A stretch of DNA of 64,000 bases from Leucoraja erinacea (taxonomy: Eukaryota). The stretch covers positions 19,654,001 through 19,718,000 of the forward strand of contig NC_073385.1 in the NCBI RefSeq assembly GCF_028641065.1, written 5' to 3'. This document shows positions 6,678 through 63,700 of the stretch, in pieces. The position numbers and the translations under genes were made by a program. Under the pieces are notes generated by a model. That model had not been told where the DNA came from, did no database searches, and worked only from the letters and a program-made list of their open reading frames with translations. Each line of letters starts with the position of its first letter. Position 1 is the stretch's first letter.

Positions 6678-8320
6678 TCAGTCAACCTCTTCAATGGTGG
6701 GCCCAGATGCAGCTTCAGGCACGGGGGGAGCACCTGCAGCACTCTGGGGAATCCCACTGCAGGGGCATCTGAGGAACTTCAGCAGCGGTTTGCAAATCTG
6801 CTCCAGCTCTTTCTGCTGGTAGTCGAGCTCCTCCTTCTCCGCGGCCTGGTTTGTTTCCAGCCAGCCGAGGACCTCCTGACACTTGGCCAGGATGACCGTC
6901 TGCTCCTCATCACTGATCTTCCCCTTCAGCTTGTCGTCCTGCACGGCCTGCTTCATGTTGTAGGCGTAGGACTCCAGGGCGTTCTTGGCCGCCACCCTCT
7001 GGCGGTTGATGTCGTCCTCCGTCTTGTACTGCTCCGCGTCCTGCACCATGCGCTCGATGTCGTCCTTGCTCAGGTGGCCCTTGTCGTTGGTGATGGTGAT
7101 CTTGCTGGCGTGGCCGGTGCTCTTGTCGATGGCCGACACGTTGAGGATGCCGTTGGCGTCTATGTCGAAGGTCACCTCAATCTGCGGTAGGCCGCGAGGC
7201 GCCGGCGGGATGTCGGTCAGGGAGAAGCGACCCAGCATGTTATTGTCCTTGGTCATGGCCCGCTCACCCTCGTACACCTGGATCAGCACGCTGGTCTGGT
7301 TCTCCGAGTACGTGGTGAAGACCTGCGTCTGCTTGGTGGGGATGGTGGTGTTGCGTTTGATGAGGGCCGTCATGATCCCCCCGGCTGTCTCGATGCCGAG
7401 GGACAGAGGAGAGACGTCCAAGAGCAACAGGTCCTGCACGTTCTCAGACTTGTCTCCCGATAAGATGGCCGCCTGCACTGCTGCCCCGTAGGCCACGGCT
7501 TCGTCCGGGTTTATGCTCTTGTTCAGCTCCTTCCCGTTGAAGAAGTCCTGGAGCATTTTCTGGATCTTGGGAATCCTGGTGGAGCCTCCCACAAGGACAA
7601 CGTCCTGTATCAGTGACTTGTCGATCTTGGCGTCGCGAATGGCCTTCTCCACGGGCTCCAGCGTGGCTCTGAAGAGGTCGCCGTTGAGTTCCTCAAACCG
7701 GGCCCTGGTGATGGCGGTGTAGAAGTCGACACCCTCGTGCAGGGAGTCGATCTCGATGCTGGCTTGCGTGCTGGAGGACAGTGTCCTTTTGGCCCGCTCA
7801 CAGGATGTACCCAGCCGCCTCACCGCACGCTTGTTCTGGGAGATGTCCTTCTTAAACTTACGCTTGAACTCCTCGATGAAGTGGTTGACCATGCGGTTGT
7901 CAAAGTCCTCCCCTCCCAGGTGAGTGTCGCCAGAGGTGGACTTGACTTCGAAGATGCCGTCCTCGATGGTAAGGATGGAGACATCGAATGTTCCGCCACC
8001 CAGGTCGAAGATGAGGACGCTGTGCTCACCGGATCCCGCTTTGTCCAGTCCGTAAGCAATGGCTGCTGCGGTGGGTTCATTGATGATCCGCATCACGTTA
8101 AGAGCAGCAATGGTCCCAGCATCTTTGGTGGCTTGTCTCTGACTATCATTGAAGTACGCCGGCACAGTGATGACCACGTTGCTGACTGGACCGCCGAGGT
8201 ATGCTTCTGCCGTCTCCTTCATTTTTGTCAGCACCATCGAAGAAATCTCTTCAGCAAAGAAAGACTTATTCTCTCCCTTGTACTCCACCTGCACTTTGGG
8301 CTTCCCGTCATCATTTATCA
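6678..8320 (-). CDS. HSPA2: Cytosolic HSP70 (HSPA2 by synteny), coding exon 2
   Basis: Acceptor ttttcccAG at 8321-8322; contains [46 protein letters not shown]; ends GPTIEEVD-stop. With exon 1 the CDS is 1926 nt = 641 aa. Confidence 0.9.
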
Positions 8321-8809
8321 CTGGGAAAATAATGAAGACATATTTAATTAAGACAGGTTTTAAATTATAAAGCATTTTATCGGGATGCATCACAGCATGG
8401 TTTGGGAACAGCTCCATCCATGACCGCAAGGAATTGCAGAGAACTTGTGACATGGCTGAGATGATCACACAAACCAACCTCCCTACCATTGACTCATTTT
8501 TTTGCATTCAGTCTACAATGAAACTGGTCACCTTCCAAAAACTTCTACATTCCACCATTTTCTGTCAGAAACAGACCCTTCTGCCCACTGAGACCACGTC
8601 ACTGATCGCCTGTTAAATACTGTAGAACACTAAAGCACAGGAACAGGCACTCGTAGTCATGTTCGAGCCCGGGTCGTTGTAAGGCAGCAATTCTACGGCT
8701 GCGCCACTGTGCCTCCCGATTACTGATTAAATGTTTTCTGGAACTAACAAAGAAAACTGATGAAGGCAGGGCAATAAACAGTAAACTACTTCAAGAAGTG
8801 AAGCGCTAC

Positions 8810-14230: not shown

Positions 14231-14655
14231 GTGAGTTCAGTTTAATTTATTGTCATGTGTACCGAGGTACAGTGAAAAACCTTTGTTGTGCGCTAACCAG
14301 TCAGCGGAAAGACAACAGACGATACCACAGACTGATTGTGGGGGCGGGAAGAAGGGAACTGTATGTCTAAGGAGAGAGGGGATAGATTTAATAGGTGAGA
14401 TACATGGATAGGACATGTTTAGAGGGATAAAGGTGAGACATGGCTGGTGGGATTAGTGGAGACGGGGCTATTGATAGATACAAAAAGCTGGAGCAACTCA
14501 GCGGGACAGGCAGCATCTCTGGAGAGAAGGAATGGGTGACGTTTCGGGTCGAGACCCTTCTTCAGACTCTATGACTGGTCCAGATGTTGAGGTGTGAGCC
14601 CACAGCTGTGGTGACAGCAGGCTGTGGAGGGGCCGCACGGCCGCAGCCCTCTCAC

Positions 14656-14938
14656 CGGTGAAGGGCCACTGCTTGATGTCGCTCTGCACCGTCGGGTCGT
14701 CGAACCTGCGGCCGATGAGCCGCTTGGCGTCGAAGATGGTGTTGGTGGGGTTAACGGCCCCCTGGTTCTTGGCGGGGTCGCCGATCAGCCGCTCGGTGTC
14801 GGTGAAGGCCACGTAGCTGGGCGTGGTGCGGTTGCCCTGGTCGTTGGCGATGATCTCTACCTTGCCGTTTTGGAAGACGCCGACACACGAGTAGGTGGTG
14901 CCCAGGTCGATGCCGACGGCCGGCGAGTGGGCGGACAT
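14656..14938 (-). CDS. HSPA2: Cytosolic HSP70 (HSPA2 by synteny), coding exon 1
   Basis: GCC-ATG start; [46 protein letters not shown]...QWPFT; donor G|GTGAG at 14655. Phase 1 joins as G+TG (Val) to exon 2. Confidence 0.92.
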
Positions 14939-15290
14939 GGCGCCGGTTGCGGAGCTGAAGACGCCGCGGCCGCCCGCTCCCTCCCGCGCAAACCCCGGCC
15001 AATCACAGCACCACACCCTTTGTCCCGGAGCCACGCCTCCCCGCGGACACCGACCAATCACAACCCCGCGGGCCACGTGGGCTCGTCCACCCGCTCACCA
15101 ATCAGCGTTCACCACGGGTCATGGACCAATGGGATCCGCGGGAACTCTGACCAATGGGTGCGGCGGGGCCACGTGGCCGGCGGGGCGGTGACGAGCGTCG
15201 CCCCGTGACGACGTTGCCCAGCAACGGCCCCAAGCAACGGCCCCTAGCAACGAACCCGTGACGACGCTGCCCAGCAACGGCCCCACGGAT
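14939..15290 (-). promoter_or_regulatory. HSP70 CpG-rich promoter: five CCAAT boxes, one ERSE-I match, CACGTG E-boxes, RFX X-boxes
   Basis: CCAAT at 14999, 15054, 15098, 15126, 15151 (+ strand); CCAAT-N9-CCACG at 15098-15116; GTTGCCCAGCAAC at 15213-15225. Confidence 0.65.
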
Positions 15291-24945: not shown

Positions 24946-25330
24946 CAGGGGTGGGGAACCTGTGGCCTTAAAGCCACATGCGGCCTTCTAGGCCATTAAG
25001 TGCGGCCTTTTGAATGAATCCAAAATTTGTAGAACAAATCCTTTTAATTTTATTAGTATGTTTTTGTTCGTCTTTTATTTTTATTTTAATTATTTTTATT
25101 TTTATCTTAAAATGAACTTATTTAAAATACTAAAGAGTAAAAGAAGATTCAACAAAATAATCCTCCCCGACTGACGGCCACAATTAAAACATGAGTAAGT
25201 CATGAGGGCTATTTTAACAAAATAGTGTATATTTTGAAATATATCTAATTGAAGTTTTTTGGATGCAGCCTTATTAGATTACAGCTAACTTAACGCGACA
25301 TTCCAACATGAAAAGGTTCACCACATACTG
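24946..25330. mobile_element. hAT (Charlie-like) MITE
   Basis: Ends CAGGGGTGGGGAACCT ... AGGTTCACCACATACTG; 8-bp TSD CTTTAGAC at 24938-24945 and 25331-25338. Confidence 0.85.
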
Positions 25331-26496: not shown

Positions 26497-26673
26497 CGAG
26501 GTCCTGTCGCACTTTTTGATGTGGCTGGACAGATGATGGTAGCAGAGGTCCTATTACACATTCTGGGTGTGGCTGAAGTTCTATCACATGTTGGTGTGGC
26601 TGGCCAGATGATTGTTGCTGAGGTCCTATTGACCTTTCTTGGTGTGAAAGGTCAGATGGTGGTTGCTGAGGTC
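26497..26673 (-). repeat. Degenerate 33-48 bp tandem repeat spanning the ZBTB1 stop codon
   Basis: About four units GACCTCAGCAAC..CATCTG..CACACCAA..TAG; the first unit encodes the last residues of ZBTB1. Confidence 0.7.
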
Positions 26674-28464
26674 CTTCTTGTGCTTGAACTTGTCCCCACA
26701 GAAGCTGCAGGTGTGCAGGTGCAGGTCCATGTGCCTCTGCAGCTGCTGGCTGCCCCCCAGCACCTGAAAGCAGACGTCGCAGACCACCTGGCCGGCGGAC
26801 AGATGCGAGACCAGGTGGCGCAGATGGTCCTGCTTGCGGTAGGTGCCCTGGCCGCAGCTGGGGCAGACATAGCGGGCCACGCCACGGTGCATGTCGAGGT
26901 GCAGCCGCAGGAGGCGTTCCCGCAGGAAGTTCTTGCCGCAGATGTGACAGGTGAACTCCTTCTCGCGGGTGTGTGTGGCATGGTGCTCCCGCAGGTGGCA
27001 CCGTTGGAAGAAGGCCTTACCGCACAGCTGGCAGACGTGCTTGCGATGGGAATTGCGTAGGGGCGGGCCCGGAGGCCCGGCCTGGGGCAGGAGGCAGGCG
27101 GACATGTGTTCGGCCCAGGCCCCTTCCTCCTCGAAGGCCAGCGTGCACCCAGGGCAGCGGAAGGCCATGCCTGCCCTGTGCTGGCGCATGTGCTCCTCCA
27201 GTTGGCGCCGTCTGCGGAAGCCGACCCCGCACACGTGGCAGGAGAAGAGGCCCGAGGCCTGACCCGCCTGCCCGTCACCCAAGCAATGCTCTGCATGCTC
27301 CTGCATGCGGCCCCCCTTTACCAGGATGCGGCCACACTTACCGCAGGCACATACGCTCTCTATGTGGCGGGACACGTAGTGGTCAGCCCGTTGGCTCTCG
27401 GGCAAAGCCACACCACACAGCTCACAGGCTGGGCCTAGCGACCCGTCACCGGCCTCTGTCTCCGTCTCCTCCTTCAGGCCTTCAACTTCCTCTCCTCCCT
27501 CCTCCTCCTCCTCCTCCTCGTCCTCTGTCCAGCCCAGCTGACGGCCGCAGGCTTCATCCTCGTCACCCCCGGCAATGGCCGCCTCCTCTTCCTCGTGCAC
27601 CTCCACCACCATCAGGTCGCCCAGCCCCGTGGCAGCCGTGTCCTCAGGTTCCGTCTTGACCACAGGCCTGGCTGGGCCCTCTACCTGGCTCCCTGTATCC
27701 GTGGTGACGGGCCGGGCCTCCCCTGGCAAGGCCATGCAGCTGCCGCAGGTCAGCGAGTGCTCGTCCAGCAAACGCTCGCAGCTGAAGACGAAGCCGCAGC
27801 GGTCGCAGGTGTAACGCCGGCCAAAGCGCCGGCCCTTCATCCCTCCGCTGCCATTGCGGCCTTGCTTGCGGGTAGGCAGCCTGCCCGGGGCCTGGTTCAC
27901 CTCCAGCTCCGGGCCCACCTCACTGCTAGGTCTTAGCTCGGCCTCTCCCTCCACTAGCACGGCAGCTACCGCTGCCTCTGTCGCCACTACCCCTCCTCCC
28001 TTCACCGGGCCTCGCATCCTCACTCCAAACAGCATGGGTCCCTGGGCCGGGCCCGAGGGCCGGGGAGGAGGGGATGAGGAGGAGGAGGGGGCCCCGGCCT
28101 CCCGCAGCTCCTCCAGGCTGCGCGGCACGTAGTAGAGCTGCAGGAAGGACATGGCGGCGCGGAGCTGCTGGAAGTCGGAGGGCTGGCCCATCACACGGCC
28201 CAGGTACATCAGCTGCAGGATCAGGTCAAAGGAGTCGGCGCTCACCTCGGCCTCGTTCAGGCTGAGCTGGGCCGGGGCAGCCTGCGCCTGCTGCTGCTGC
28301 CCGATGAAGAGCATGCGGAAATAGGAGCTGCAGGCCGTCAGCACCGCCCGGTGGGCCCGGAAGTAGATGTCGCCGATCACCACGCAACAGTCGCACAGGA
28401 AGCCCCACTCGCGCTGGCTGTTCAGCTGCTGCAGCACATACTCACTGTGGCTGGGCCGAGACAT
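26626..28464 (-). CDS. ZBTB1: Zinc finger and BTB domain protein 1, single coding exon, 612 aa
   Basis: MSRPSHSEYVLQQLNSQREWGFLCDCC, CDRCGFVFSCERLLDEH, CACGKCGRILVKG and terminal fingers SHLSAG..CFQV..HMDLHL match recalled ZBTB1; acceptor ctctgcAG at 28509-28510. Confidence 0.92.
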   Translation of the reverse strand: MSRPSHSEYVLQQLNSQREWGFLCDCCVVIGDIYFRAHRAVLTACSSYFRMLFIGQQQQAQAAPAQLSLNEAEVSADSFDLILQLMYLGRVMGQPSDFQQLRAAMSFLQLYYVPRSLEELREAGAPSSSSSPPPRPSGPAQGPMLFGVRMRGPVKGGGVVATEAAVAAVLVEGEAELRPSSEVGPELEVNQAPGRLPTRKQGRNGSGGMKGRRFGRRYTCDRCGFVFSCERLLDEHSLTCGSCMALPGEARPVTTDTGSQVEGPARPVVKTEPEDTAATGLGDLMVVEVHEEEEAAIAGGDEDEACGRQLGWTEDEEEEEEEGGEEVEGLKEETETEAGDGSLGPACELCGVALPESQRADHYVSRHIESVCACGKCGRILVKGGRMQEHAEHCLGDGQAGQASGLFSCHVCGVGFRRRRQLEEHMRQHRAGMAFRCPGCTLAFEEEGAWAEHMSACLLPQAGPPGPPLRNSHRKHVCQLCGKAFFQRCHLREHHATHTREKEFTCHICGKNFLRERLLRLHLDMHRGVARYVCPSCGQGTYRKQDHLRHLVSHLSAGQVVCDVCFQVLGGSQQLQRHMDLHLHTCSFCGDKFKHKKDLSNHHLTFHTKKGQ

Positions 28465-28588
28465 CCTGCACCAGGCCAGGCCGGGCCGGCCAGACTGGGC
28501 CACAGGCTCTGCAGAGGGAGATACACGGGTCAGTGCACTGCAGACACATACAAAGTTCGACAAAAGACTTTCATAAGTGTGACTTTAA

Positions 28589-46986: not shown

Positions 46987-47159
46987 ATGGACGTGGCCAA
47001 TCACAGCGTGGTGCTGCTGCAGCAGCTGAACGTGCAGCGGGAGTTTGGCTTCCTGTGTGACTGCACCGTGGCCGTGGGAGACATCCATTTCAAGGCCCAC
47101 CGGGCCGTGCTGGCTGCCTTCTCCAACTACTTCAAGATGATCTTCATCCATCAGTCTAG
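46987..47159 (+). CDS. ZBTB25: ZBTB25 coding exon 1 (N-terminal BTB)
   Basis: [57 protein letters not shown]; acceptor at 46976-77; donor AG|GTACAT; phase 2. Confidence 0.92.
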
Positions 47160-49240: not shown

Positions 49241-50067
49241 CGACTACATCAAGGTGCAGCCAGTGGACATCCAGCCGGACATCTTCAGCTACCTGCTGCA
49301 CCTGATGTACACGGGCAAGGGGCCGAAGCAGCCGGTTGATCCCAGCCGGCTGGAGGAGGGCATCCGCTTCCTGCACGCCTACAACCTGGTGCATGACCCG
49401 GGCCACGGGGGGCCACTCTTCGGTCCCCACCACGAGGTGCTGCCTCTGCAGTCGCCCAACCTGTACGGCATACAGATCTCCGGCTCGCAGAAGGTGCAGG
49501 TGGCACAGAGCGCAGGCCGGAGCGGGCCGCCTGGCCTGGGCTTGGAGCAGCCGGGCCAGCTGCCCTCCGGCCCAGTGGCCAACATTCCCGAGCACCGCTA
49601 CGCCAGGCCGCCCATCACCCAGGAGGTGGCGACGCTCGGGGAGGACAGCAGCCCAGGAGCGACGCCGGCCGCCGCCCGCGGACTACAAGTCCCCGGCCTC
49701 GGCTTCAAGAGGGGCAAGTCCCACAAACACTACTCCTGCCACTACTGTGGGGAGAGGTTTGCTGCCAGGGGAAGCTTGCGGGACCACCTGTACTCCCATG
49801 CCAGCGGCACCCTGCCCTCAGCCACCCCACCGGCAGCCGCCCAGACCAGGGGGCTCGGAGACCACCCCCAAGAAGCCGAGAAAGCCGAGGGGCTGCTGGG
49901 GGAGGAAGTACAGCTACCAGCCGCTAACCAGCACGAGACCAACAGCCTGGACGAGCATCCTCCCGTCGGACTGACCGTCACCGTCGGAGCCTATGGGGGC
50001 GACGCCATTGAGAGCGGTAGCTTCGGCACGGCCAAGAGGAGGAAGTTCGCCTGCTCCGTTTGTGGCC
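49241..50067 (+). CDS. ZBTB25: ZBTB25 coding exon 2 (rest of BTB, one C2H2 finger, first half of a second finger)
   Basis: Acceptor cctacAG; DIQPDIFSYLLHLMYTGKGPKQ..RLEEGIRFLH..NLYGIQIS; CHYCGERF..L..HLYSH; ends KFACSVCG at donor C|GTGAGT. Confidence 0.88.
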
Positions 50068-50144
50068 GTGAGTATCCGACACCGGTGGGTGCTGGAGGTG
50101 GGGAAGGAACGGCCTGGCAATTGTGGGCTGGGCCGGCAAAGTAT

Positions 50145-51604
50145 TGGTTAAAGTGCACATTGTCAGATTTTAATAAAGGCCATTTTTATACATCTTGGTT
50201 TCACCATGTAGAAATTACAGCAGTGTTTATACATAGTCCCCTCCATTTCAGGGCACCATTATGCTTGGGACACAGCAATGTCATGTAAATGAAAGAAATA
50301 GTCATGTTTAGTATTTTGTTGTATCCTTTGCATGCAATGACTGCTTGAAGTCTGCAATTCATGGACATCACCAGTTGCTGGGTGTCCTCTCTGGTGATGC
50401 TCTGCCAGGCCTGTATTGCAGCCATCTTTAGCTTATGCTTGTTTTAGGGGCTAGTCCCCCTTCAGTTTTCTCTTCAGCATGCTCAATTGGGTTCAGATCG
50501 GGTGGTTGACTTGGCCACTCAAGAATTTACCATTTTTTAGCTTTGAAAAACTCCTTTGTTGCTTTAGCAGTATGTTTGGGATCATTGTCTTGCTGTAGAA
50601 TGAACTGCTGGCCAATGAGTTTTGAGGCATTTGTTTGAACTTGAGCAGATAGGATGCGTCTATACACGTCAGAATTCATTGTGCTACTACCATCAGCAGT
50701 TGTATCATCAATGAAGATAAGTGAGCCAGTACCTTCAGCAACGATACATGCCCAGGCCATAACACCCCCCACCACCGTGTTTCACAGATGAGGTGGTATG
50801 CTTTGTATCTTGGGCAGTTCCTTCTCTCCTCCACACTTTGCTCATGCCGTCACACTGATATAAGTTAATCTTTATCTCATCTGTCCACAAGGCTTTTTCC
50901 CAGGACTGTGGTTGCTCTTTTAAGTACTTCTTGGCAAACCGTTACCTGGCCATCCTAGTTTTGCAGCTAACCAGTGGTTTACATGCAGTGTAGCCTCTGT
51001 ATTTCTGTTCATGAAGTCTTCTGCGGACAGTGGTCTTTGAAAAGCCACACCTGACTCCTGAAGAGTGTTTCTGATCTGTCGGACAGGTATTTGGGGAATT
51101 TTCTTTATTATAGAGAGAATTCTTCCGTCATCAGCTGCAGAAGTCTTCCCTGGACTGCCAGTCCCTTTGCGATTAGTAAGCTCACCAGTGCTCTCTTTCT
51201 TCTTAATGATGTTCCAAACAGTTGATTTTGGTAAGCCTAATTTATTCTTGTTTCTCAGTCTCATAATGGCTTAATTGACTTTCATTGGCACAGCTTTGGT
51301 GCTCATGTTGATAAACAGCAATAAAAGTTTCCAAAGATGATGGAAAGACTGGAGGAAAGACTAGGTGCTGAGAGCTCTCTTATACCTGCATTAAGGGGGC
51401 AATTACCTGAGCAATTACAAACACCTGTGAAGCCATGTGTCCCAAACATTATGCTGCCCTGAAATGGGGGGGCTATGTATAAACACAGCTGTAATTTCTA
51501 CATAGTGAAACCAAAATGTAAAAATACCCTTTAATAAAATCTGACAATGTGCACTTTAACCACATGTGATTTTTTAATTGTTCTAAACATTATGGAGGGC
51601 ACTG
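50145..51604 (-). mobile_element. Tc1-family transposon (IR/DR type) with decayed transposase
   Basis: Long inverted repeats (50145-50273 versus about 51437-51562); right end ..GGAGGGCACTG|TA; fragments LGLPKSTVWNIIKK, GGVMAWACI, FILQQDNDPKHTAK; outer part of the left TIR is missing. Confidence 0.9.
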
Positions 51605-53247
51605 TATATATTGTATCTATAGTATTTCTACTATACATGTTTATAATGGAGCCGCCCACAGAGTACAGATACAGGCTATAGGGAATAATCAGGGTGGGAC
51701 AAGTTTTTGAATATGGTGGCTGCTTTTCTGAGGCAGAGTGAAGTGTAAGTGGAGACAGTGGTGGGGAGTCTGGTCTGTGTGATGGACTGGGTTACGTCCA
51801 AAACTGTCTGCAATTCCTTATGGTCGTGGGATGAACTTGTTCCCAAACCAAGCTGTGATTTTTCCCGACAGGATTCTTTCCATGGAGCATCTATGGAAAT
51901 TGGTCAAAGTTGTTGGAGACATACTGAACTTTCTTTGAATGGCCACCGTTGAGTTGATGAGGGGAATGAGTAGGGTGACAACAGAGCATACAATCAGGAA
52001 CATTTAATCAGGTGGACTGTAAAACAAGTCAAAAGAACTAGGATGGGGGAGGGATGGAGAGGGAAGTAAGGGTTTCGTGAAGTTAAAAAAGTCAATATTC
52101 ATACTATGAATATAAGTTGCCCAAGTGAAATATGAGGTGCTGTTCCCCCAATTTGCATTGGTCTTCACTCTGACAATGGAGGAGGCCCAGGATAGAAAGT
52201 TCAGCGTGGGAATGGGAGGGGGAGGTAAAGTGTTTAGCAACCGGGAGATCGGCTAGGGGGAGTTAAATATTCCCATCAATTCCCACACTGACCTTTCAGT
52301 CCTGGGCCTCCTCCATTGTCAGAGTGAGGCCCAGCGCAAATTGGGGGAGCAGCACCTCAGATTTCACTTGGGCAGCTTACACCCCAGCGGTATGAACATT
52401 GACTTCTCTAACTTCAAGGGTCTGAGCTGTAGGGAGAGGTTGGACAAGTTTATTGAAAAAAAATACACAAAATGGGAGAAGTATTTCCGTCGGTTGTTGA
52501 ATTCATTGAAATTTAAAAAATATATTGTAAACTTGTCCAAATTATTTGTTATAATTAGTTGGTAGATTTATAGAATCCATTGGTTTTTGTTCTAATTGTA
52601 GGCTTATGGAATGTATTAATTGTTATAATGTATTGTAGACTTATATAAGTTATTGAATGCTTGTTTATAATGTATTGCACATAGAATGTTTGTGTATCAT
52701 TTATTGAATGAACGAAACGTTACACCTCACATGATGAGTCAGTGCGACCCAAGGTATGCAAAGATGGGCCATGTAAGGTGCACAGACTTATAGAAGTTAT
52801 TGTTGCGTGCTAATCAGTCACCAGAAAGACTATATTATTACAATCGAGCCGTCCACAGAGTGTAGATACACGATAAAGGAATAACATTTAGTGCAAAGTA
52901 AAGCAAGTCAAGTCTGATCAACGATAATCTGAGGGTCCCCAATGACGTAGATAGTAGTTCAACACTGCTCTCCAGTTGTGATAGAATGGTTCAGTTTTCT
53001 GATAACAGCCGGGAAGAAACTCTCCCTAAATCTGGAGGTGTGCGTTTTTACACATTTTGTACCTCTTGCCCGATGGGAGAGGGGAGAAGAGGGGGTGACC
53101 GGGGTGAGACTGGTCCTTGATTATGCTGAGGCAGTGTGAGGTGTAGATGGAGTCGATGGATGGGATGTTGGTTTGAGATGGTCTGGGCTGCGTCCACAAC
53201 TCTCTGCAATAATAACTAACCCCTGTTCTGTCTTTCTCTGTCTGCAG

Positions 53248-55688
53248 ACACGGCGGAGCCAGAGCCGGAGGCAGGTGCCCTGTCCCCGCCGCCAGCACCA
53301 GCGGCCACCGCCGGCCCAGAGGAGCTGCCCTCGCGGCGGCAGCAGCAGCTGGCAGCGGCCGAGCTGGAGGCTGCTTTCCGCGCCGTCTTCGCCAACTACG
53401 AGTCAGCGCGCGTGCATGCCCACTACAAGTGCGTGCGTGGCGGGTGCGCGCTCCCCGTCACGGGAAGTGCGGTCACGGTGACTGCGCCGGGCCGGCGTGG
53501 TGGCGGCGACCGCTTCGTGCACCGCTGGCTGTGGGAGCGGGAACTGACGTACTGCGAGCGCACGGGTGTGTACTGGCTGTTGTACGAGGAGGGCCGCGGC
53601 ATGTACTGCTACCTGTGTCGGCGCCACGACGCCCACAACCGGCAGAACAAGAGCAAGGTGTTCAATGGTACGCCGGCTGTGCGCTACAAGAAGGCAGCGC
53701 TGCAGGCCCACGCCGAGTCGCAGCAGCATGGAGCTGCGGTCCGCGCCGAGCTGTCGGGCCGCCTGTCCGCACGCCAACTGGCCCGGAGCGGACAGCAGGA
53801 AGCGGCCTCGTTGCGCGCCCTTTTCCAGGCCGCCTATTGGCTGGCGAGGGAGGGGCTGCCAACTGCAAAGCTACGCCCCGCGCTGCGGTTGCTAGGCGCC
53901 ACGCCCACGCACTTCCGGCGCGCCGCTACGCTGTGCCGCGTCTTCCGCGCGCTGGGCTGCGCCGTGCACAGGCGCGTGCTGCTGGGCCTCCGGCGTGCCG
54001 CTCACTTCGGGCTGCTGTGCGAGAGGAGCGACGCGGAGGTCGGGGCCGGCGTTGACTCCGCGCTGCTCGGCTTCGTGCAGTACGTGGATCCCGACTCCAA
54101 GGAGGTGACGTGGAGCTTACTCTTCGCCGAGGTAGGCCGCACCAGAGCCTGGGACTCGGGTGAGGAGGTGGCCGGGGCGGTGAGCCGCGCCCTGGGCCGC
54201 GCGGAGCTGGAGGGCAGCCGCCTGGCCTGGCTGGTGGCCGAGCAGGCGGGCGAGGAGGAGCCGGCGGCGCGGCTGCAGGAGGGCTGGCCTGGGCTGCTGG
54301 GGATGGCGTGGCCGGGGCGGCGGCTGCTGCTGGCGGGGACTGGGCGCGGGGGAGCAGGGGCGTGCGGGCCGTTGCTCCGGCTCCAGGCCTGGCTGTACCA
54401 GCTGTGGGAGCTGCTCGAACGTTCGCCCGCCCTGGCCGAGGCTTACCTGGCCGCCCGCATGCCCGGAGCAGAGGCCGAGGTCTCGCCGCCCAGCCGCCTC
54501 CTCCGGCCAGCGCTGCTCCGCCGGCTGCGACGGACCTGCCGCCGGTGCCGCCAGTCGGTCGAGGCGTCGGTGGAGGGTGCGTACGAGGATCTGCCGGCGC
54601 TGCTGCGGGCACTGCGGGCTCAGGGCGGGGTGGAGGCGGCGGCCTGCGGCCTCTGGGCCCAGCTGAGCTCCCCGCGGGCCGCGGGAGGCCTCTACATCCT
54701 GCGGGAGGTGGCGGCGGCGCTTCTCGGCCTGACACGGGCCCTGCGCCGGGCCAGGGGGCTACAGGCGCCGCCCGACGCCGAGCTGCGGATCGCCCTGCAG
54801 CGGCTGCGGGAAGCGGCAGAGTCCGGGGCGCCGCTGAGCCGCCTGCGGGCCGACCTGGAGCCCGGCGGCCGCCTGTCAGCTTGCGGCCTGCCGCCGCTCG
54901 ACGCCCGCGACCAGGCCGAGCTGCGCAGCCTGCTGGACGCCTACACGGCCGGGCTGGCGGCCGAGCTGCGACGCCGCTTCCTCGGGCCTGAGGCCGGGGC
55001 CTCGCCTCTGGCTGCCCTGGCCATCTTCAACCCGCTGCTGGTGCCCGAGCCAGGCTCCCCCGAGGCAGCGGCAGCCCACGGGCAGGCCCAGGTGGCCGCC
55101 CTGGCCTCCCGCTTTCACCCCGGGGAGGCAGGCGCCGAGGCCCGGCTGCAGGCTGAGTGGGCCCGGCTCCAGCCCGAGCTGCGGGCCTGGCGCTCCAGCC
55201 TGCCTGCCTCGGCGCTGGCCGAGCCCGGGCCCACGGCTGTCGAGTGGAGCCTCCGCCGCCTGCTGCGCCTCCGTTCCTACCCGGGGCTGGCGGCTGTGGC
55301 TGAGGCGGCGCTGGCGGCACCCGTGGGCCCGGCGTGGGACGAGCGGGCGGCTGGAGCCTTGCGTAGGGTGGAGGCCCGGCTGAGGGAAGGCCGCTGCCGG
55401 GACGCTGGGCTGCTCGACAGCCTCCTGCACATCAGCGTGAACGGCCCCGAGCTGGGCACGACCGAGTGCTCGCAGTTGCTGGAGGAAGCGGCGCACACGT
55501 TCCTGCAGCAGTGGCGGCCCGGAGCTGGGGCCTCGCCCCAGCACAAGCCCCACCTGGCATCGGTCAAAGCCGAGGAAGTGGCCGAGAGCTCGGAACAAGA
55601 GCTGGAGCAGGAGCTGGAGCAGACGGGGGGAGCTCTGCAGCACCAAGCCGACATTGACAGCGACTCGGAGAACAGTCTATGCGACTAG
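53248..55688 (+). CDS. hAT-transposase-derived exon (ZNF862/C17orf113-like), predicted terminal coding exon of ZBTB25
   Basis: Strong pyrimidine-tract acceptor at 53246-47; uninterrupted frame; TTF-type zinc finger (WL.Y..GMYCYLCRRH..H..S..H); hAT dimerisation-like C-terminus (YPGLAAVAEAALAAPVGPAWDERAAGALRRV..LDSLLHISVNGP). Confidence 0.8.
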
Positions 55689-57687
55689 GCCCCGGGTTTG
55701 GCCCTTCCCTCAGGCTTTACTCTGGGCTGGGAGTCAGGACAGGTCTGGTGGGAGGGAAGGTCAGTTGGATGCTCTAAAGTGGATCAGAATGGTTGTTCAT
55801 CAAGAGAGACACAAGGAACTCCAGTTGCTGGTTTACCCAACAGGAAGGACATAAAGTGGTGCAGTTACTCAGCGGGTCAGGAAGCATCGCTGGAGAACAT
55901 GGGTCAGAAACTTCACCTATTCACGTTCTTCAGAGATCGTTCATTAAAACTGGAACGTGATGGGTTGAGTTTCACAGTATTTTCACAGCCTCACTATTCC
56001 CCTGCAGAGTTGGAACGGGTAGGAACTGAGCTGGTCCACAGAGTTATGGCAGCTCTATCCCAGAGCTGCATTGATTGATTAAAAGATACATCAAGGGAAC
56101 AGGCCACTGAGTCCACGCCGACCATTGATCACCCATCACACTAGTTTTATGCTATTCCACAGTCTCTTCCACTCCTTCACTAGGGGGCAATTGACAGAGG
56201 GCCAATTAGCTTACAAAGCCGCACATCTTTGGGATGCGGGAAGAAGCCGGACCACCCGGAATAAACTCACTTGGCCACAGGGAGAACGTGCAAACTCCAC
56301 ACACAGGCAGCAGCCTAGGTCAGGATCGAACCTGGGTCTCCGGTGTTGGGAGGCAGTGGCTCTACCAGCTGCACCACTGTGCCACCCTATTTCACCGGAA
56401 TCGTAGAAACATTGCGAGAGGTGGTGCAGTGGTAGAGTTGCTGCTATGCAGCGCCGGAGACCCGGGTTCGATCCCGACCACGGGCGCTGTCAGTACGGAG
56501 TTTGCACGTTCTCCCCGTGACTTGCGTGGATTTTCTTCGTGATCTTTGGTTTCCTCCCACACTACAAAGACGTGCAGGTTTGTTGGTTAATTGGCTTAGT
56601 AAATGTAAAAATTGTCCCTAGTGGGTGTAGGATAGTGTTAATGTGCGGGGATCGCTGGTCGGCGGGAGCCCGGTGGGCCGAAGGGCCTATTTCCATGCTG
56701 TATCTCTAAACTAAACCGAAGTGCAGGAAGCAAACTAGTCCCGATCACCATCTCTACTGCTGGAGGGAAGGAGGCTGAGAGGTGACCCATGAAATCTATA
56801 TCATTATGAGGGGGGTAGATACAGTGGTTAGTTTAAAAAACAACCTCCATCTACCCTAGGCCATGGTCAAACCCTTTGCCAGTTGGGGTTGGTATCAGGA
56901 CAGGTATAGACTCAGAACTGATGGGTTTTGGGCATAGGTTTTGCAGGTCTATCCCTGAGCTTAATCTCCTTAAGTAAAAAAGAATGACTTCACCAGAACT
57001 GGAGTGTCACGGGCCATGTTTAAGAGTAACGGCCACAATCCTCCCCACGCACAGGCCACAGCTCCATGGCCAGTGGAAGTGAGCGTTCCCGAGAGCTGGT
57101 GTCTTGAGATAGTGTGACGAGGGGCAAAGTCTTGCACAGTAAAACACAAAGTGCCGGGACAGCACTGGTGCAGCAGTAGAGCTGCCGCCAACCGTGCCAG
57201 ACACCCTGGCTCGATCCTGTGTGTGTGTGTGTTTGCACAATCTCCCTGTGGTTTCACCATGGGTTTCCTCCGGCTGCTCCTGCTTCCTCTCACATCCAAA
57301 GACAGGCCACTTTATGGGTTAATTGGCCTGGCATGCAGGGAGCGGATGAGAAAGTGGGATAACGTAGAACACGTGATCAACGGTCAGTGTGGGCTTGGTG
57401 CTCCAAAGTGCCTGTTTGCATGCTACATTTTTTCAAGCTCTTAAAAAACCGAGTGAGGCAGGCAGCATCTGCAGAGGGAATGGACATGCAATGTTTTGGG
57501 TTGGGGCCCTTCAGTCTAGTGTGGTGGGAGAGTGTGACAGAAGCAAAGCCTTACTCAGGGTTCAATCTTTGTAGCTCATGTCCAGTCACAGGAAACCACG
57601 CATATTGTGTGTTTAGAGTATAAGTGTTCATCATTTTTTTACGCTATCGTGATTTTTAATTTTTAATCTATGTATTTTGAAAGTGAA

Positions 57688-57725
57688 AATAAAAGTTGTT
57701 TTTCTAGAGTTTTAATGTTTTTATT
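57688..57725. terminator. Convergent polyadenylation signals
   Basis: AATAAA on + at 57688-57693 followed by T/GT-rich sequence; AATAAA on - at 57720-57725. Confidence 0.4.
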
Positions 57726-57726
57726 A

Positions 57727-58930
57727 TTACTGCTTTCTGAGGGCAATGTTGTGAGCAGCTGTAAGATGATGTTGCTGCCTGGTGCTTTGGAGACAGTTTA
57801 TTGCAATAGATGAGGTTTGTGTGATGCATTTTGGGGGGGCTGATGGTTTCAACGGGAAGTCTTGCCCCCCCCCGCCCCGTTCTCCAGCTCGGATTCTGGA
57901 AGTTCCCTGCCACCCGCGGATGCTGCCTCCACTGCCCAGCGGGGAAGGCAGGAGGTCACCCGGCAGTGCAAGGCTGCCTTGGAGGTCCATCCCATCCCTC
58001 CTTCTCTCCCTGCCCCAGCTGAGATTCCAGGGCCGCCCCATTTTCCCAGCAGACGGCAGGAGGGTGGGTGAGGAGGTCGCGCCCTGTGGTGCCACCCTCT
58101 GCTCCTTAACTTGGTGGGGCATAACCTTGCCCGGTTTACCCAGGTTGGACCTCATCTCCTGCAGGATGTTTCACTAAACATCTCACCTTCTCCATTCTCT
58201 ACTTTTGCCAATGGAGTTGGTTCTAACTCGAGGAACTCATGCTAGGGTAGGTGATCTAATTCTACTGGGGTAGGACCTCTCCCATCATTGGTCCCTCGGT
58301 CCAAGTGGAGATGGTTTGGTCTCTCCTTGTGAAGGATCCACGTGTCCGGCTGGAGCTCCCTCTCCGGTCTTCCCCGGCCAAGGCGAAACCACCTTTCCTT
58401 AGGATTGGCTACACCTCCCATTTTAGAGCTCCCATTCCCAGTCTGCCCTGTTCTACTTCCCTTGGCTCAGCTGGGACAGTTCTCTCAATGTCCCCTCTCC
58501 ATCTCATGGAGCTCAGCCTGTGAATGTCTTGGTTCACCTGTGTCTCCGTCTCTCAGGAGCAGAGTTACTGAGTGTCCTGGAGGTTCTACACTTTTCTTGG
58601 GTGCGGACTCCGGGTAGGGGAAGGGTCCTGAGGAACACACTGACCCCCGCTCCCTGTCCTTTCCTCTCGCCAGCTCCCACCACCAAAAACTTCCACGTCC
58701 TTCCTAGCAAAGCTTCTCCATTCCTTCTTAGGCACCACCAAGTCTCCGAAAGATGTCCACCATCTGCCCGAAGGCTTCCTCCTCGGCTTGCCCTGCCCAA
58801 GGATCTGCCCTGCACTGGTATTCCGCCCTCCTCCCGTCTCCAGGGCCTCGGCCCCGACTGCCCCCTGGGTGATCCATGCTTGCCTCTCACGCTCAGAGTG
58901 GCAATGTTGTTGAAGCAAGAAACCAATCTT
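57727..58930 (-). pseudogene. Possible decayed AKAP5-like gene
   Basis: WSK-like motif WTSFGDLVVPKK (58724-58759) and PKA-RII-helix-like CITQTSSIAINCLQSTRQQ (57772-57828) in separate ORFs; syntenic position and strand of AKAP5. Confidence 0.35.
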
Positions 58931-60114
58931 CTGTATTAAGTTACGCTACAAAACTGCCCCATTGGGAGCAAGGACAGTCTACCAACTGAAGGGGAGTGGA
59001 GACTCATAGAGACAGCACAGACACAGGCCCTTTGGCCCACGTTTCCCATGCTGACCAAGTTGGCATTCTGGGCTTGTCACATTTACCTGCCCATCTATCT
59101 GTCCAAATGGCTTTTAGAAGTAATTGTAATTGCTTCTAGAACTTCCACTGGCAGCACGTTTCAGATACTGATTACCCTCTGTGTGGAAAAATTAGACACA
59201 AGGAACAGCGGATGCTGGTTTACAAAAACAAAATGCTGGAGTTTAGTGTGTCAGACAGCATCCCTGGAGATTGTGGATAGGTGACATTTCAGGTCAGGCA
59301 CAGTCTGAAGGGTCCTAACCCAAAACGTCACCTATCCTCGTTACAGGAGGAATTATTTAGCCAGTGGGTGGTGAATCTGTGGAATTCATTGCCACAAACA
59401 CCTGTGGAGGCCAAGATATTGGATATTTTTAAAGCAGAGATTGATAGATTCTTAATTTGTACGGGTGCCAAAGTTTATGGGGAGAAGGCAGGAGAATGGG
59501 GTTGAGGGGGAAAGATAGATCAGCCATGATTGAATGGCAGAATCGACTTAATGGCTTAATTCTGCTCATGTCACACAGCTATGTGGCGCCCACGTTGGTT
59601 TTGCATTAAGCCTGTCACCGCCAGCAGCCTCACCAGAAGGTCAATAACAACTCCATGGTCAGACGCACTAATTGCCTGATCTGCACACGGGTTATGATGG
59701 GTGAGAATGTAGGTAAAGGGGGCTTCTGGGATAAATGTGACAAGGTGTCTGGTTCAGCTAAGTGTTGTTTGTTCTTTGCTTTCTGTCGTGGGTTTCAGAA
59801 GATCCTAGTTACGCCAGCACTTTGTGTCTTTTTCTGGGTGGGAAAAGTTGCGCCCAGGGTCCCTCTTAAATCTCTCCCTTAAGTCTCACCTTAAGCCTGT
59901 GCCCTCTAGTTTTAGAATACTCTACCACTGGGGAAAAAGACTGAGCGTTCACTTTATCCATATCCTTCATTATTTCCCTTCCTTTTCCCACTCCTCCCTC
60001 CACTCTACCCCCTCCTCCTTTGTGCTCCCTAGATTGTACCCAGAACAGGGCGTGCTGCTCAGCCCCGAGGCACAAGCACAGCGGTAGAAGGGGTGCAACA
60101 AAAACTGGCGAGAG

Positions 60115-60351
60115 CTAGGAAATCGAGCTTTTATTCTGTTAGAAAACTAGAACATTCAGCCGAGCATTTCCCCCACAAAATACACAGATTGTCAGCTTGT
60201 GAATCAGCAGTTCTGTCAGGGCGGTGGATTGTTGGAATGAAAAGCAATTCCTGGTATCATGCACCATTTGTAATCTTAGCACCGTCACAGGCCGTGAAAT
60301 GTATCCCCATTGTCATCCAGACTGCTGCCAGTCTCTCCAATCTTCTGGACA
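60115..60351 (-). other. MTHFD1: Predicted non-coding terminal exon (3' UTR) of MTHFD1
   Basis: Acceptor ctgtctgtcttgcAG at 60352-53; AATAAA on - at 60130-60135; the upstream coding exon has a donor just after its stop codon. Confidence 0.55.
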
Positions 60352-60674
60352 CTGCAAGACAGACAGAAAATGCAAGTAGTAGACACAAGGCACTGAAAAA
60401 GACAACGTGCAGGACAGTGTAAAAAATCACAAGGGCAAACGCACTCTTGCCCAGAGTAGGGAAAAGGAGCACAAGAGAACTAAGTTTAAGGTGATTTCTT
60501 TTTTTTTACTTGCACACACAAAGACTGTGGAGTAAGTCATTGGGAGAGGCAGCATCTCTGGAGAACATGGATAGGTGACATTTCAGGTCAGGACCCTTCA
60601 GACAGATTGTGGCCGGAGTGAGGGGGAGAAAAGGGGCAGGACAAACCCTGGCAAGTGATAGGTGGGGTACAGGT

Positions 60675-60705
<31 letters not shown>

Positions 60706-61428
60706 GATAGGCAGATGGTTGCATAAAGACTAGAGATGAAGATAATAAGTGTATGATCATTAGGACGGGCGAAATAGGTGCAAGACCAGGTGGGGTGCAG
60801 GGAAGTGGGGGAAAAGGCACGGCAGGGTTTAGTATCTAAAATTAGAGAATTCAATGATCATGCCTTTAGGTTGTAAGCTACCCAAGCGGTGTGTAAGGTG
60901 CTGTTTCTCCAGTTTGCATGTGGTCTAACTCTGGTAATGGAGGCGGCCCAGGACAGAAAGGTTAGTGTGGGAACGGGAATGGCAAGTGGGAGATCCAGCA
61001 GGCCTTGGCAGTCTGTGCGCAAGTCTTTGGTGGAACGGTGGTCGAGTCTTTGCTTAGGCTCGCTGATGCACAGGAGGCCACGTCAGCAACACCAGATGCA
61101 GTAGATGACGATAGAGGAAACACTTCTGTCTCACCTGGTCCCTGGATGGAGACAAGGAAGGAAGTGTAGGGACAGGTGTTACAACTGCAGCAAGTCATGA
61201 GAGGCATAGATAGGGTAGATAGAACTTAGACACCAAATGCTGGAGTATCTCAGCAGGTCAGGCTGCATCTCTGGAGAAAAAGAATAGGTGACGTTTCGGG
61301 TCAGAACCTTCCCCTCCCAAAGAAATGTCAAAGACCAGAAGCTGAAGGGCCTTGATGCTGTGCTGTATTCCTCAATGTTCTTATAGACCTGTGAGGGGGG
61401 TTTGCTTACCTTTCGTCAAGGTGTGTGG

Positions 61429-61623
<195 letters not shown>

Positions 61624-61929
61624 TCAATAAAACTTGTCGCACACATCTCCATGAACCTTGTGACCTTGCTTCATTCTGATTATCATCTCACTGGTGCCTT
61701 CACAACAGTGGCACAGGGGTAGAGTTGCTGCCTTACAGCGCAGACAACGGGTGCTGTCTGTATGGAGTTTGCACGTCCTCCCTGTGACCATGAGGGTTTT
61801 CCCTGGGTGTAGGTTAATTGGCTCTAGTGTATAGGATAGAACTCACGTACAGGGTAATCATTGGTTGGCGTGGACTGGGTGGGGCAAAGGGATGGGTGAT
61901 GTTTCGGGTCGAGACCCTTCTTCAGACTG

Positions 61930-63700
61930 TCCTATCCATGTACCTGTCTAACTGTTTCTTAAATGTTGCAATAGTACCGGCCTCAACTACCTCCTCTGGC
62001 AGCTTGTTCCATACACCCACCAACCTTTGCAAAAAAGTTACTCAGATTCCTATTACATCTTTTCCCCTTCACCTTGAACCTATGTCCTCTGGTCCTCGAT
62101 TCCCCTACTCTGGGCGCCAGACTCCGCATCTACCCCATCTATTCCTCTCATGATTTTGTACACACTTCTATAAGATCACCCCTCATCCACCTGCACTCCA
62201 AGGAATAGAGTCCCAGCCTACTCAACCTCTCCCTGTAGCTCACACCCTCTAGTCCTGGCAACATCCTCGTAAATCTTTTCTGAACCAGAACTGAACACAA
62301 TATTCTAAATGCGATCTCACCAACGTCTTATACAACTGCAACGTGACCTCCCAACTTCTATACCCAATACTCTGACTGATGGAGGCCAATGGGCCAAAAG
62401 CCTTTATGACCACCTTATCTACCTGCAATTCGACCTTCAAGGAACCATCCACCTGTACTCCTAGATCCCTCTGCTCCACAACATTACCCAGAGGCCTACC
62501 ATTTACTGTGTAGGTCCTGCCCTTGTTAGATGTCCCAAAATGCAACACCTCACACTTCTCTGTATTAAATTCCATCAACCATTCCTCAGCCCACCTGACC
62601 AATCGATCCAGATCCTGCTGCAATCGTTCACAACCATTTTCACTATCTGCAAAACCACTCACTTTTGTATCATCAGCAAACTTGCCAATGTTGCCCTGTG
62701 TGTTCTCATCCAAATCATTGATGTTGGTGACAAACAGTAAAGGGGCCCAGCACTGAACCCCGAGGTACATCACTAATCACAGGCCTCTAGTCCGAGTAGC
62801 AACCTTCTACCATTTCCCTCTGCTTCTTCCCTGAAGCCAATTTTCAATCCATTCAGCTATCTCTCTTTGGATCCAATGTGATCTAACCTTTTAGAGCAGC
62901 CTACCTTGTCAAAACTAAACTAAACTTCCAACCATGGTTAGACACACAATGCTGGAGTAACTCAGCGGGACAGACAATAGAGAATAGGTGCAGGAGTAGG
63001 CCATCACCGAGCCAGCACCGCCATTCAATGTGATCATGGTTGATCATCCACAATCAGTACCCCGTTCCTGCCTTCTCCGCATATCCCCTGACTCCGCTAT
63101 CTTTAGGAGCTCCATCCAACATGTCATTTGCTTTCTTCACTGCCTGCTTTACCTGCAAGTTTACTTTCAGTGACTGATGGACAAGGCCCCCCAGGTCCGT
63201 TGTACTTCCCCTTTTCCCAACTTGACACCATTCAGATAATAATCTGCCTTCCTGTTTTTGCCACCAGTGGATAACCTCACATTTATCCACATTAAACTGC
63301 ATCTGCCATGCATAAGCCCACTCCCCCAACCTGTCCAAGTCACCCTGCATCCTCATAGCATCCTCCTCACAGTTCACACTGCCACCCAGCTTTGTGTCAT
63401 CTGCAAATTTGCTAATGTTACTTTTAATCCCTTCATCTAAATCATTAATGTATATTGTAAATAGCTGCGGTCCCAGCACCGTTCCATGCGGTACCCCACC
63501 AGTCACTGCCTGCCATTCTGAAAGGGACCCGTTAATGCCTACTCTTTGTTTACTGTCTGCAAACCAATTTTCTATCCATGTCAGCACTCTACCCCCAATA
63601 TCATGTGTTCTAATTTGTCCCACTAATCTCGTATGTGGGACCTTATCAAATGCTTTCTGTAGTCCAGGCAGACTACATCCACTGGTTCTCCCTTGTCCAT
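61930..63700 (-). mobile_element. Two CR1 LINE RT fragments in an MTHFD1 intron
   Basis: ORFs 62249-62773 and 63054-63623, both with INDLDE..KFADDTK. Confidence 0.88.

What the first reader, a model, noticed from the sequence alone, without database searches (positions are those of the whole stretch)
53500..55460. The captured transposase looks catalytically dead but structurally preserved
Seen: an intact frame that is GC/CpG-rich like the host ZBTB exons, with no TIRs or TSD apparent. By-eye alignment to ZNF862-like hAT motifs: DESTD appears as CERSD (about 54018-54032), SDGA as AEQA, the CxxH motif (HCxxHRLxLA) as AWPGRRLLLA (about 54306), and TRW is lost. The Zn-finger Cys/His residues, the WDER glutamate (55341) and the dimerisation region are kept. 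Inference: selection on DNA binding and oligomerisation rather than catalysis, typical of old domestication.
Basis: partly seen in the sequence, partly recalled or inferred. Interest (0 to 1): 0.7.

Follow-up and report, generated by a model that had tools for sequence, protein, structure and literature searches.

The report
Ancient ZBTB25–hAT transposase fusion, skate
This skate's ZBTB25 gene is spliced onto a tamed jumping-gene enzyme shared with sharks, coelacanth, lungfish and caecilians; the skate copy has lost most cutting residues but kept its zinc finger, so it likely works as a DNA-binding regulator rather than an enzyme.

Summary
Confirmed, with corrections. 53248-55688 is the last exon of ZBTB25; the splice 50067→53248 stands in contigs of three studies. 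It matches a profile of 54 free hAT transposases (390 bits, E 3e-116), and its model matches Hermes best (Z 16.9). In the skate both catalytic Asp are Glu, CxxH is WPGR, RW is CR, and the final Glu stays.

Orthologues occur in rays, sharks, chimaera, coelacanth, lungfish and caecilians and form one clade, so capture predates jawed vertebrates. Decay was stepwise: Trp is lost in 18 of 18, yet 6 of 7 sharks keep D, D, CxxH and E. Only the zinc finger is specially conserved (about 4-fold slower); selection on oligomerisation is not shown.

A new member of a known kind (host-transposase fusion), already in public gene models. My paper searches found no description, but Cosby's Table S3 was not seen. 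This scan noted the fusion before in a shark (e1-8022733).

The parts
46987..47159 (+). ZBTB25-like coding exon 1 (start of BTB domain)
   Evidence: Pfam BTB E 4e-14; ATG and GT donor; three exons give 1146 aa without an inner stop
49241..50067 (+). ZBTB25-like coding exon 2: rest of BTB, C2H2 finger 1, and only the CxxC half of finger 2
   Evidence: Pfam; finger 2 is complete in coelacanth and caecilians but cut after CG in all cartilaginous-fish rows that cover it; no second half found in any frame of 50001-62000
50068..53247 (+). GT..AG phase-1 intron joining host exon to transposase exon
   Evidence: contig X1 record 3 joins 50067 to 53248; contigs of X7 and X11 (two other studies, related species) skip from 50067 into the exon
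53248..55688 (+). terminal exon: full-length domesticated hAT transposase (ZNF862-like family, donor relatives with 6-bp TSD)
   Evidence: 390 bits against a free-hAT profile; model pLDDT 89, best match Hermes; single copy in the genome
53574..53756 (+). zf-C17orf113 zinc finger (CxxC at 53607-53618, two His at 53709 and 53727): the predicted DNA-binding domain
   Evidence: Pfam PF25431 34.3 bits, cut-off 29.5; 8 of 8 family-invariant columns kept in all 18 orthologue rows
54021..54023 (+). site of first catalytic Asp, now Glu
   Evidence: Asp in 53 of 54 free relatives
54240..54242 (+). site of second catalytic Asp, now Glu (skate-specific)
   Evidence: Asp in 51 of 52 free relatives and in all 15 non-skate orthologues
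54309..54320 (+). CxxH motif replaced by WPGR
   Evidence: Cys and His each in 50 of 51 free relatives
54546..54551 (+). RW motif replaced by CR; the Trp is absent in all 18 ZBTB25 rows
   Evidence: Trp in 51 of 52 free relatives
55341..55343 (+). catalytic Glu retained (WDER), inside the region Pfam calls hAT C-terminal dimerisation
   Evidence: Glu in 46 of 46 free relatives

Best explanation
This is the last exon of ZBTB25, a whole hAT transposase captured by splicing before jawed vertebrates split, and in skates it is likely a catalytically dead scaffold whose zinc finger is predicted to bind DNA while the BTB domain would recruit partner proteins. Steps. (1) Shown: the exon is hAT-derived, single-copy, without TIRs, and spliced in frame behind BTB and a C2H2 finger. 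(2) Shown: one origin shared by cartilaginous and lobe-finned fishes. (3) Shown: five of six active-site residues are changed in skates, in steps: Trp on the common stem; Asp1 and His in batoids; Asp2 and Cys in skates; separately Asp1 and His in lobe-fins. (4) Inferred from Kat1 and Hermes mutants: no cleavage or strand transfer in the skate protein. (5) Inferred: the zinc finger is the part under strongest selection and gives sequence-specific binding, most likely to GC-rich CGG-type motifs like the AGCCGG, CCGCCG and AGGCGG repeats at the donor family's ends. (6) Inferred from mammalian ZBTB25: BTB dimerisation (with itself or ZBTB2) and co-repressor contacts make it a transcription regulator. 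The dead core is kept as a folded spacer under weaker, GC-skewed constraint.
For: Profile match 390 bits, E 3e-116, shuffles blank. Fold: Foldseek best Hermes, E 2.7e-6; VIA Z 16.9, rmsd 6.3, 397 aligned, next family Z 10.8. Splice in contigs of three studies. Orthologues in 17 other proteins from rays, sharks, chimaera, coelacanth, lungfish and caecilians, one side of a branch with SH-aLRT 100. Synteny with HSP70, ZBTB1-like and FTHFS exons. Active-site loss: 1 of 6 kept against 36 of 56 other invariant columns outside the finger, binomial p 0.024. Zinc-finger identity between orthologues is 0.67-0.96 against 0.22-0.83 for the N-terminal catalytic half in the same pairs; among free relatives the order is reversed (0.36 against 0.42). 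Kat1 DDE mutants are dead and CxxH mutants cannot form hairpins (PMC4763223, passages). Donor subterminal enrichment: CGGC 39 seen against 17.5 in shuffles, 0 of 200 shuffles as high; hAT-derived CGGBPs bind motifs found in their transposons' subterminal regions (PMC8097297, passages). ZBTB25 BTB heterodimerises with ZBTB2 (PMC8350017, passages).
Against: No binding or activity was measured. The free-hAT profile was built from hits of orthologue queries, so its score is favoured by selection (their hAT identity rests separately on Pfam, motifs and TIR/TSD). Asp-to-Glu changes are conservative and the Asp1 register depends on the aligner. Sharks keep the whole triad and CxxH, so 'dead since capture' is wrong for the gene family. 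The AlphaFold model leans on an alignment that includes active relatives, so it does not prove the skate core folds. The skate core is strongly skewed to G/A/R/P (0.40-0.49 against 0.13-0.29 in lobe-fins and free relatives), which fits relaxed constraint. Mouse ZBTB25 BTB does not bind GATAD2A/B or UBN2 in yeast two-hybrid tests, so the co-repressor step is uncertain. The tree is the quick one, without bootstrap.
Confidence: 0.75

Rival explanations
1. The capture was selected for a crippled nuclease: without the Trp it cannot integrate but may still nick or cut. Sharks and chimaeras keep this activity, while skates, rays and lobe-fins lost it later and kept only DNA binding.
For: D, D, C, H and E are all kept in 6 of 7 sharks; D, D, C and H in the truncated chimaera model; the Trp is lost in 18 of 18. 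Kat1 W576A still cleaves but barely does strand transfer (PMC4763223).
Against: Sharks keep 75-76% of other invariant columns too, so five of five has a chance probability near 0.25, and the sharks count as one lineage. The conserved T, L and S around RW and the second Asp of DEVTD have also changed. It does not apply to the skate copy.
Confidence: 0.12
2. Only the zinc finger matters in batoids. The rest of the exon is drifting under GC-biased mutation or gene conversion and is kept open mainly because it lies in the last exon and is GC-rich (few stop codons).
For: Skate branch lengths of about 1.06 in core and insertion against 0.13-0.37 in sharks; G/A/R/P up to 0.49 and F/Y/M/I/N/K down to 0.04-0.06; GC at codon positions 0.79/0.57/0.87.
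Against: 36 of 56 family-invariant fold columns outside the finger are still kept; indels against related skates are in frame (table 4); identity to Rhinoraja is 0.83-0.88 throughout; the frame is full-length in 6 of 6 batoid rows.
Confidence: 0.1
3. A still-mobile or recently inserted hAT transposon that happens to lie behind ZBTB25.
For: Full-length transposase fold; distant, broken multi-copy hATs of related families exist in the genome.
Against: Single copy (next hit 96 bits against 352); no TIR or TSD; spliced; orthologous and monophyletic across jawed vertebrates.
Confidence: 0.01

Closest known systems
Host-transposase fusion genes (Cosby et al., bioRxiv 10.1101/2020.05.07.082677; SETMAR, CSB-PGBD3, KRABINER)
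   Same: Transposase on its own exon, captured by splicing behind a host regulatory domain; DNA-binding part is what is kept (main text part 1 of section 3 and passages read).
   Different: Host domain is BTB plus C2H2; 'ZBTB' and 'BTB' occur 0 times in that main text. The survey covered tetrapod annotations; its Table S3 could not be seen and might list the caecilian isoform.
ZNF862 / C17orf113 / PRDM11-type hAT-derived genes
   Same: Same Pfam zinc finger (zf-C17orf113); NCBI names shark orthologues and coral relatives 'zinc finger protein 862-like'.
   Different: Not these genes: fused to ZBTB25 at the HSP70-ZBTB1-ZBTB25-MTHFD1 locus, and nearest to free coral transposases. No direct alignment to the human proteins was run; their hAT origin and domain make-up are recalled.
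Hermes and Kat1 (hAT transposases with solved structure or mutant series)
   Same: Zinc finger, helical region, RNase H-like core with insertion domain; DDE, CxxH and RW positions; best structural match.
   Different: About 11% identity; five of six active-site residues changed in the skate; donor relatives make 6-bp rather than 8-bp target duplications.
CGGBP1 and ZBED transcription factors (PMC8097297, passages)
   Same: hAT-derived DNA-binding proteins; CGGBPs bind CGG-type motifs found in subterminal regions, as predicted here.
   Different: Those derive from hAT-19 or other groups and are not fused to BTB; binding here is untested.
Mammalian ZBTB25
   Same: Orthologous BTB and C2H2 part (coelacanth and caecilian orthologues are named ZBTB25 isoform X2); reported repressor with HDAC1-Sin3a (PMC8544881, search listing only) and ZBTB2 partner (PMC8350017, passages).
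   Different: The mammalian protein is short and lacks the transposase exon (recalled, not fetched); no amniote, frog or ray-finned fish orthologue of the exon appeared.

Membership tests
hAT transposase-derived sequence | significant profile match to free hAT transposases over the full length | tested here: met
   390 bits, E 3e-116, profile positions 18-767 of 812; 4 of 4 free relatives scanned pass Pfam Dimer_Tnp_hAT cut-off
hAT transposase-derived sequence | RNase H-like core with large helical insertion, Hermes-like fold | tested here: met
   model pLDDT 89; Foldseek E 2.7e-6; VIA Z 16.9, rmsd 6.3, 397 aligned
hAT transposase-derived sequence | N-terminal C2H2-type zinc finger | tested here: met
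   PF25431 above cut-off; Cys, Cys, His, His kept
active hAT transposase | intact DDE triad | tested here: not met
   E, E, E in the skate; intact in 7 of 7 shark rows
active hAT transposase | CxxH motif and RW tryptophan | tested here: not met
   WPGR and CR; Trp absent in 18 of 18 ZBTB25 rows
autonomous hAT element | terminal inverted repeats and target-site duplication, multiple copies | tested here: not met
   no TIR pair with TSD around the exon; one copy
host-transposase fusion gene | transposase exon spliced in frame to host-domain exons, with RNA support | tested here: met
   GT..AG, 1146-aa frame; spliced contigs in three studies (run type is a guess by the tool, but the contigs skip the intron)
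host-transposase fusion gene | orthologous, single-origin conservation across species | tested here: met
   18 rows form one side of a branch, SH-aLRT 100, lobe-fins against cartilaginous fishes
host-transposase fusion gene | dN/dS under 1 on the transposase domain | not testable with these tools
   orthologue DNA not available; protein-level conservation only
host-transposase fusion gene | sequence-specific DNA binding and transcriptional effect | not testable with these tools
   needs SELEX, ChIP or reporter assays
hAT5/hAT6-like (5-6-bp TSD) donor group | closest free relatives carry short TIRs and non-8-bp TSDs | tested here: inconclusive
   19 of 80 loci show a TIR-like pair; exact 6-bp TSD in 6 loci (4 independent sites), 5-bp in 1, 8-bp in none. 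No Repbase hAT5/hAT6 sequence was compared; hAT5 with 5-bp TSD is stated in PMC9004415, hAT6 with 6-bp TSD is recalled
ZNF862 / PRDM11 / C17orf113 orthologue | orthology with the human genes | not tested
   synteny and host domains point to ZBTB25 instead; human sequences not fetched

The most novel reading that the evidence does not exclude
Early jawed vertebrates tethered a hAT transposase to a BTB transcription factor as a site-specific nuclease that cuts but cannot integrate (Trp lost once, DDE and CxxH kept). Sharks still carry the active form; skates, rays and lobe-fins independently turned it into a pure DNA-binding factor, and mammals dropped the exon.
Probability: 0.12. Interest if true: 0.85.

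Novelty: new member of a known kind. Interest (0 to 1): 0.42.

Why it matters
It adds a very old BTB-type host-transposase fusion to a class so far surveyed in tetrapods. It implies that the short mammalian ZBTB25 is a derived truncation of an ancestral fusion gene. It also gives a natural series (sharks intact, rays partly, skates fully degraded, lobe-fins separately degraded) in which the loss of transposase chemistry after capture can be tested residue by residue. The dead-site observation itself is ordinary for old domestications.

Tried and rejected
Sequence search of PDB chains: no hit at E up to 10 for the skate exon, only chance hits for the catshark protein; the Hermes link needed a fold search.

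Two-copy complex of the finger plus helical region (residues 48-216 of the model): score 0.00, 'no answer', alignment not used; no evidence either way.

Raw-read RNA runs X21 and X24 (about 5-6% of each read): no depth on the transposase exon and next to none on exon 2; uninformative about the fusion.

Donor-type left-end pattern in the skate genome: 0 exact matches; one tight pattern only, so not proof of absence.

MITE 24946-25330 as cognate target: 8-bp TSD CTTTAGAC and different TIRs. It does hold two CGGC words in its left end, so binding is not excluded.

Hidden second half of C2H2 finger 2: none in 50001-62000.

Further ZBTB25-clade proteins among 191 other fetched proteins (190 scored): none scored better to the ZBTB25 profile than to the coral-type profile. 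Homologue searches scored only about 8000 candidates each, and 50% clusters can hide members, so loss in amniotes, frogs and ray-finned fish is suggested, not shown.

Literature: ZBTB25 + transposase, 6 papers, none on the fusion by title and abstract start; host-transposase fusion + BTB + hAT, 0; nothing on it. PMC5753468 has no ZNF862 or ZBTB; PMC9004415 mentions only ZBTB20. The supplement of the Cosby preprint (Table S3) was not seen.

The careful tree did not finish; the quick tree was used, and Pristiophorus grouping with batoids there is probably a composition artefact.

Full report
What the window is. The best protein hit is 99% identical and is annotated from the skate Amblyraja radiata, so the window is from a skate. 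It carries an HSP70 gene, a ZBTB1-like gene on the minus strand and a ZBTB25-like gene on the plus strand. Formate-tetrahydrofolate ligase exons follow just beyond the window. That order matches the human HSPA2-ZBTB1-ZBTB25-MTHFD1 block as I recall it.

Gene structure. The frame in the finding is the last exon (53248-55688) of the ZBTB25-like gene. Exons 46987-47159, 49241-50067 and 53248-55688 have GT..AG introns and give 1146 residues with no inner stop. A contig of run X1 joins 50067 to 53248 exactly. Contigs of X7 and X11, from two other studies and related species, skip from 50067 into the same exon. The tool only guesses these runs to be RNA, but the contigs lack the intron. Two raw-read RNA runs, sampled at about 5-6%, gave no depth on this exon and next to none on exon 2. 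The exon is single-copy. A free relative used as query finds it at 352 bits and the next, mostly broken, hAT copies at 96 bits or less.

hAT origin. Pfam finds only the zinc finger zf-C17orf113 in the skate exon. Searches with the catshark and caecilian orthologues gave free relatives; named members of their clusters come from corals and a bivalve. A profile from the 54 free proteins of 600 residues or more scores the skate exon at 390 bits (E 3e-116) over positions 18-767 of 812, while 20 shuffles and the reversed sequence gave no reported hit. These relatives were found with orthologue queries, so I checked their identity separately. Four of four scanned pass the Pfam hAT dimerisation cut-off, and 43 of 44 complete ones carry D, D, C, H, W and E. 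Of 80 metagenome loci, 19 show a TIR-like pair beginning CAG(G/T)G or TAGGG; 6 loci (4 independent sites) have an exact 6-bp target duplication, 1 a 5-bp one, none an 8-bp one. So the donor was a hAT with a non-canonical short duplication. hAT5 with 5-bp duplications is described in PMC9004415 (passages); the label hAT6 for 6-bp ones is recalled. An AlphaFold model from a 78-row alignment (pLDDT 89) matches Hermes best: Foldseek E 2.7e-6; VIA Z 16.9, rmsd 6.3, 397 aligned, with the next family at Z 10.8.

The active site. In the skate, Asp1 is Glu (54021), Asp2 is Glu (54240), CxxH is WPGR (54309-54320), RW is CR (54546-54551), and the final Glu is kept (55341). One of six active-site residues is kept, against 36 of 56 other family-invariant columns outside the finger (binomial p 0.024). 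In Kat1, DDE mutants are inactive and CxxH mutants cannot make hairpins (PMC4763223, passages). The skate protein is therefore very probably dead; this is inferred, not assayed.

Age and stepwise decay. Orthologues with the same exon occur in 5 other batoids, 7 sharks, a chimaera, coelacanth, lungfish and 2 caecilians. The 18 rows form one side of a branch (SH-aLRT 100), split into lobe-fins and cartilaginous fishes, with coral transposases as sister (support 90) (quick tree, 42 of the 54 free rows used, those with under 200 gaps). The Trp is gone in 18 of 18. Six of 7 sharks keep D, D, C, H and E; the sawshark lacks the His; the truncated chimaera model keeps D, D, C and H. Rays have Asp1 as Glu, His as Arg and the final Glu as Asp. 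Lobe-fins have Asp1 as Gly and no His. Catalytic death thus happened more than once after capture. The shark retention is not significant by itself: sharks keep about 75% of other invariant columns, so five of five has a probability near 0.25. Kat1 lacking the equivalent Trp still cleaves but barely joins, which keeps a cut-but-not-paste reading open for sharks.

What selection keeps. The zinc finger retains 8 of 8 invariant columns in all 18 rows. On a fixed species tree of 17 rows (chimaera left out) its length is 1.23, against 4.88 for the helical region, 5.26 for the catalytic core and 4.86 for the insertion domain. Among free relatives the catalytic halves are more conserved than the finger (0.42-0.44 against 0.36), the reverse of the orthologues. 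This supports a shift to DNA binding. It does not support special selection on oligomerisation: the helical region, which overlaps the part aligned to Hermes residues 120-180, evolves as fast as the core. The C-terminal region that Pfam names dimerisation keeps 10 of 15 invariant columns and is where the catalytic Glu lies. Outside the finger the skate protein is skewed toward residues with GC-rich codons (G/A/R/P 0.40-0.49), with branch lengths of about 1.06 against 0.13-0.37 in sharks, so constraint there is real but relaxed.

Likely target. The 80 bases inside each TIR of 9 free elements are enriched in CGGC (39 against 17.5 in dinucleotide shuffles, 0 of 200 as high) and in AGCCGG, CCGCCG and AGGCGG. 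hAT-derived CGG-binding proteins recognise motifs found in their transposons' subterminal regions (PMC8097297, passages). I therefore predict GC-rich CGG-type sites. The MITE at 24946-25330 has an 8-bp duplication and other TIRs, so it is not of the donor's kind, though its left end has two CGGC words. One exact donor-end pattern gave 0 matches in the genome. Mouse ZBTB25 heterodimerises with ZBTB2 through BTB but does not bind GATAD2A/B or UBN2 (PMC8350017, passages); an HDAC1-Sin3a link is known to me from a search listing only (PMC8544881).

Novelty. The fused protein is already in public gene models, mostly as 'uncharacterized', 'ZNF862-like' or 'ZBTB25 isoform X2'. Searches showed no paper on it, judged from listings. 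The Cosby preprint's main text has no 'ZBTB' or 'BTB', but its Table S3 was not seen and could hold the caecilian isoform. This scan recorded the same fusion earlier in a shark (e1-8022733), seen after my own reading was formed. No amniote, frog or ray-finned fish orthologue of the exon turned up; these searches are capped, so loss is suggested only.

Verdict. A real, ancient host-transposase fusion. New member of a known kind; interest 0.42.

Noticed in passing
window 50040-50067 and intron donor 50068: The second C2H2 finger of ZBTB25 is cut after CxxC-G by the splice donor in the cartilaginous-fish rows, but is complete in coelacanth and caecilians; one caecilian model (P0016) uses a still later donor. 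Three donor positions lead into the same transposase exon.
   Followed up: partly
window 50145-51606: High-copy element with long inverted repeats (arms 50145-50274 and 51436-51562) in the ZBTB25 intron; its right end reads TA then CAGTG on the minus strand, Tc1/mariner-like; the left end looks clipped.
   Followed up: partly
window 24946-25330: hAT MITE with exact 8-bp target duplication CTTTAGAC (TA at positions 4-5, a Buster-type signature as recalled).
   Followed up: partly
window 6678-8507 and 14498-15094, minus strand: The HSP70 gene at the HSPA2 position is in two pieces about 6 kb apart (N-terminal piece and main piece), which suggests an intron or insertion; human HSPA2 is recalled as intronless.
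   Followed up: no
window 26626-28584, minus strand: ZBTB1-like coding exon (BTB plus several C2H2 fingers), head-to-head with ZBTB25.
   Followed up: partly
L006-L010 and other hits: The skate genome holds at least 49 further, more distant matches to this hAT family, many with stops; a few have open frames of about 600-660 aa (for example on contigs C27, C9, C18) and could be other domesticated or young copies.
   Followed up: partly
L011, L012, L017, L020, L026, L028, L033, L042, L070: Coral-type hAT elements with 15-bp TIRs share a conserved G-run/C-run palindrome about 85-130 bases inside the right end, across otherwise divergent families.
   Followed up: no
window 53415-53445: An HxHYxC...C motif ahead of the main finger is shared with the free relatives and all orthologues; possibly a second metal site.
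   Followed up: no
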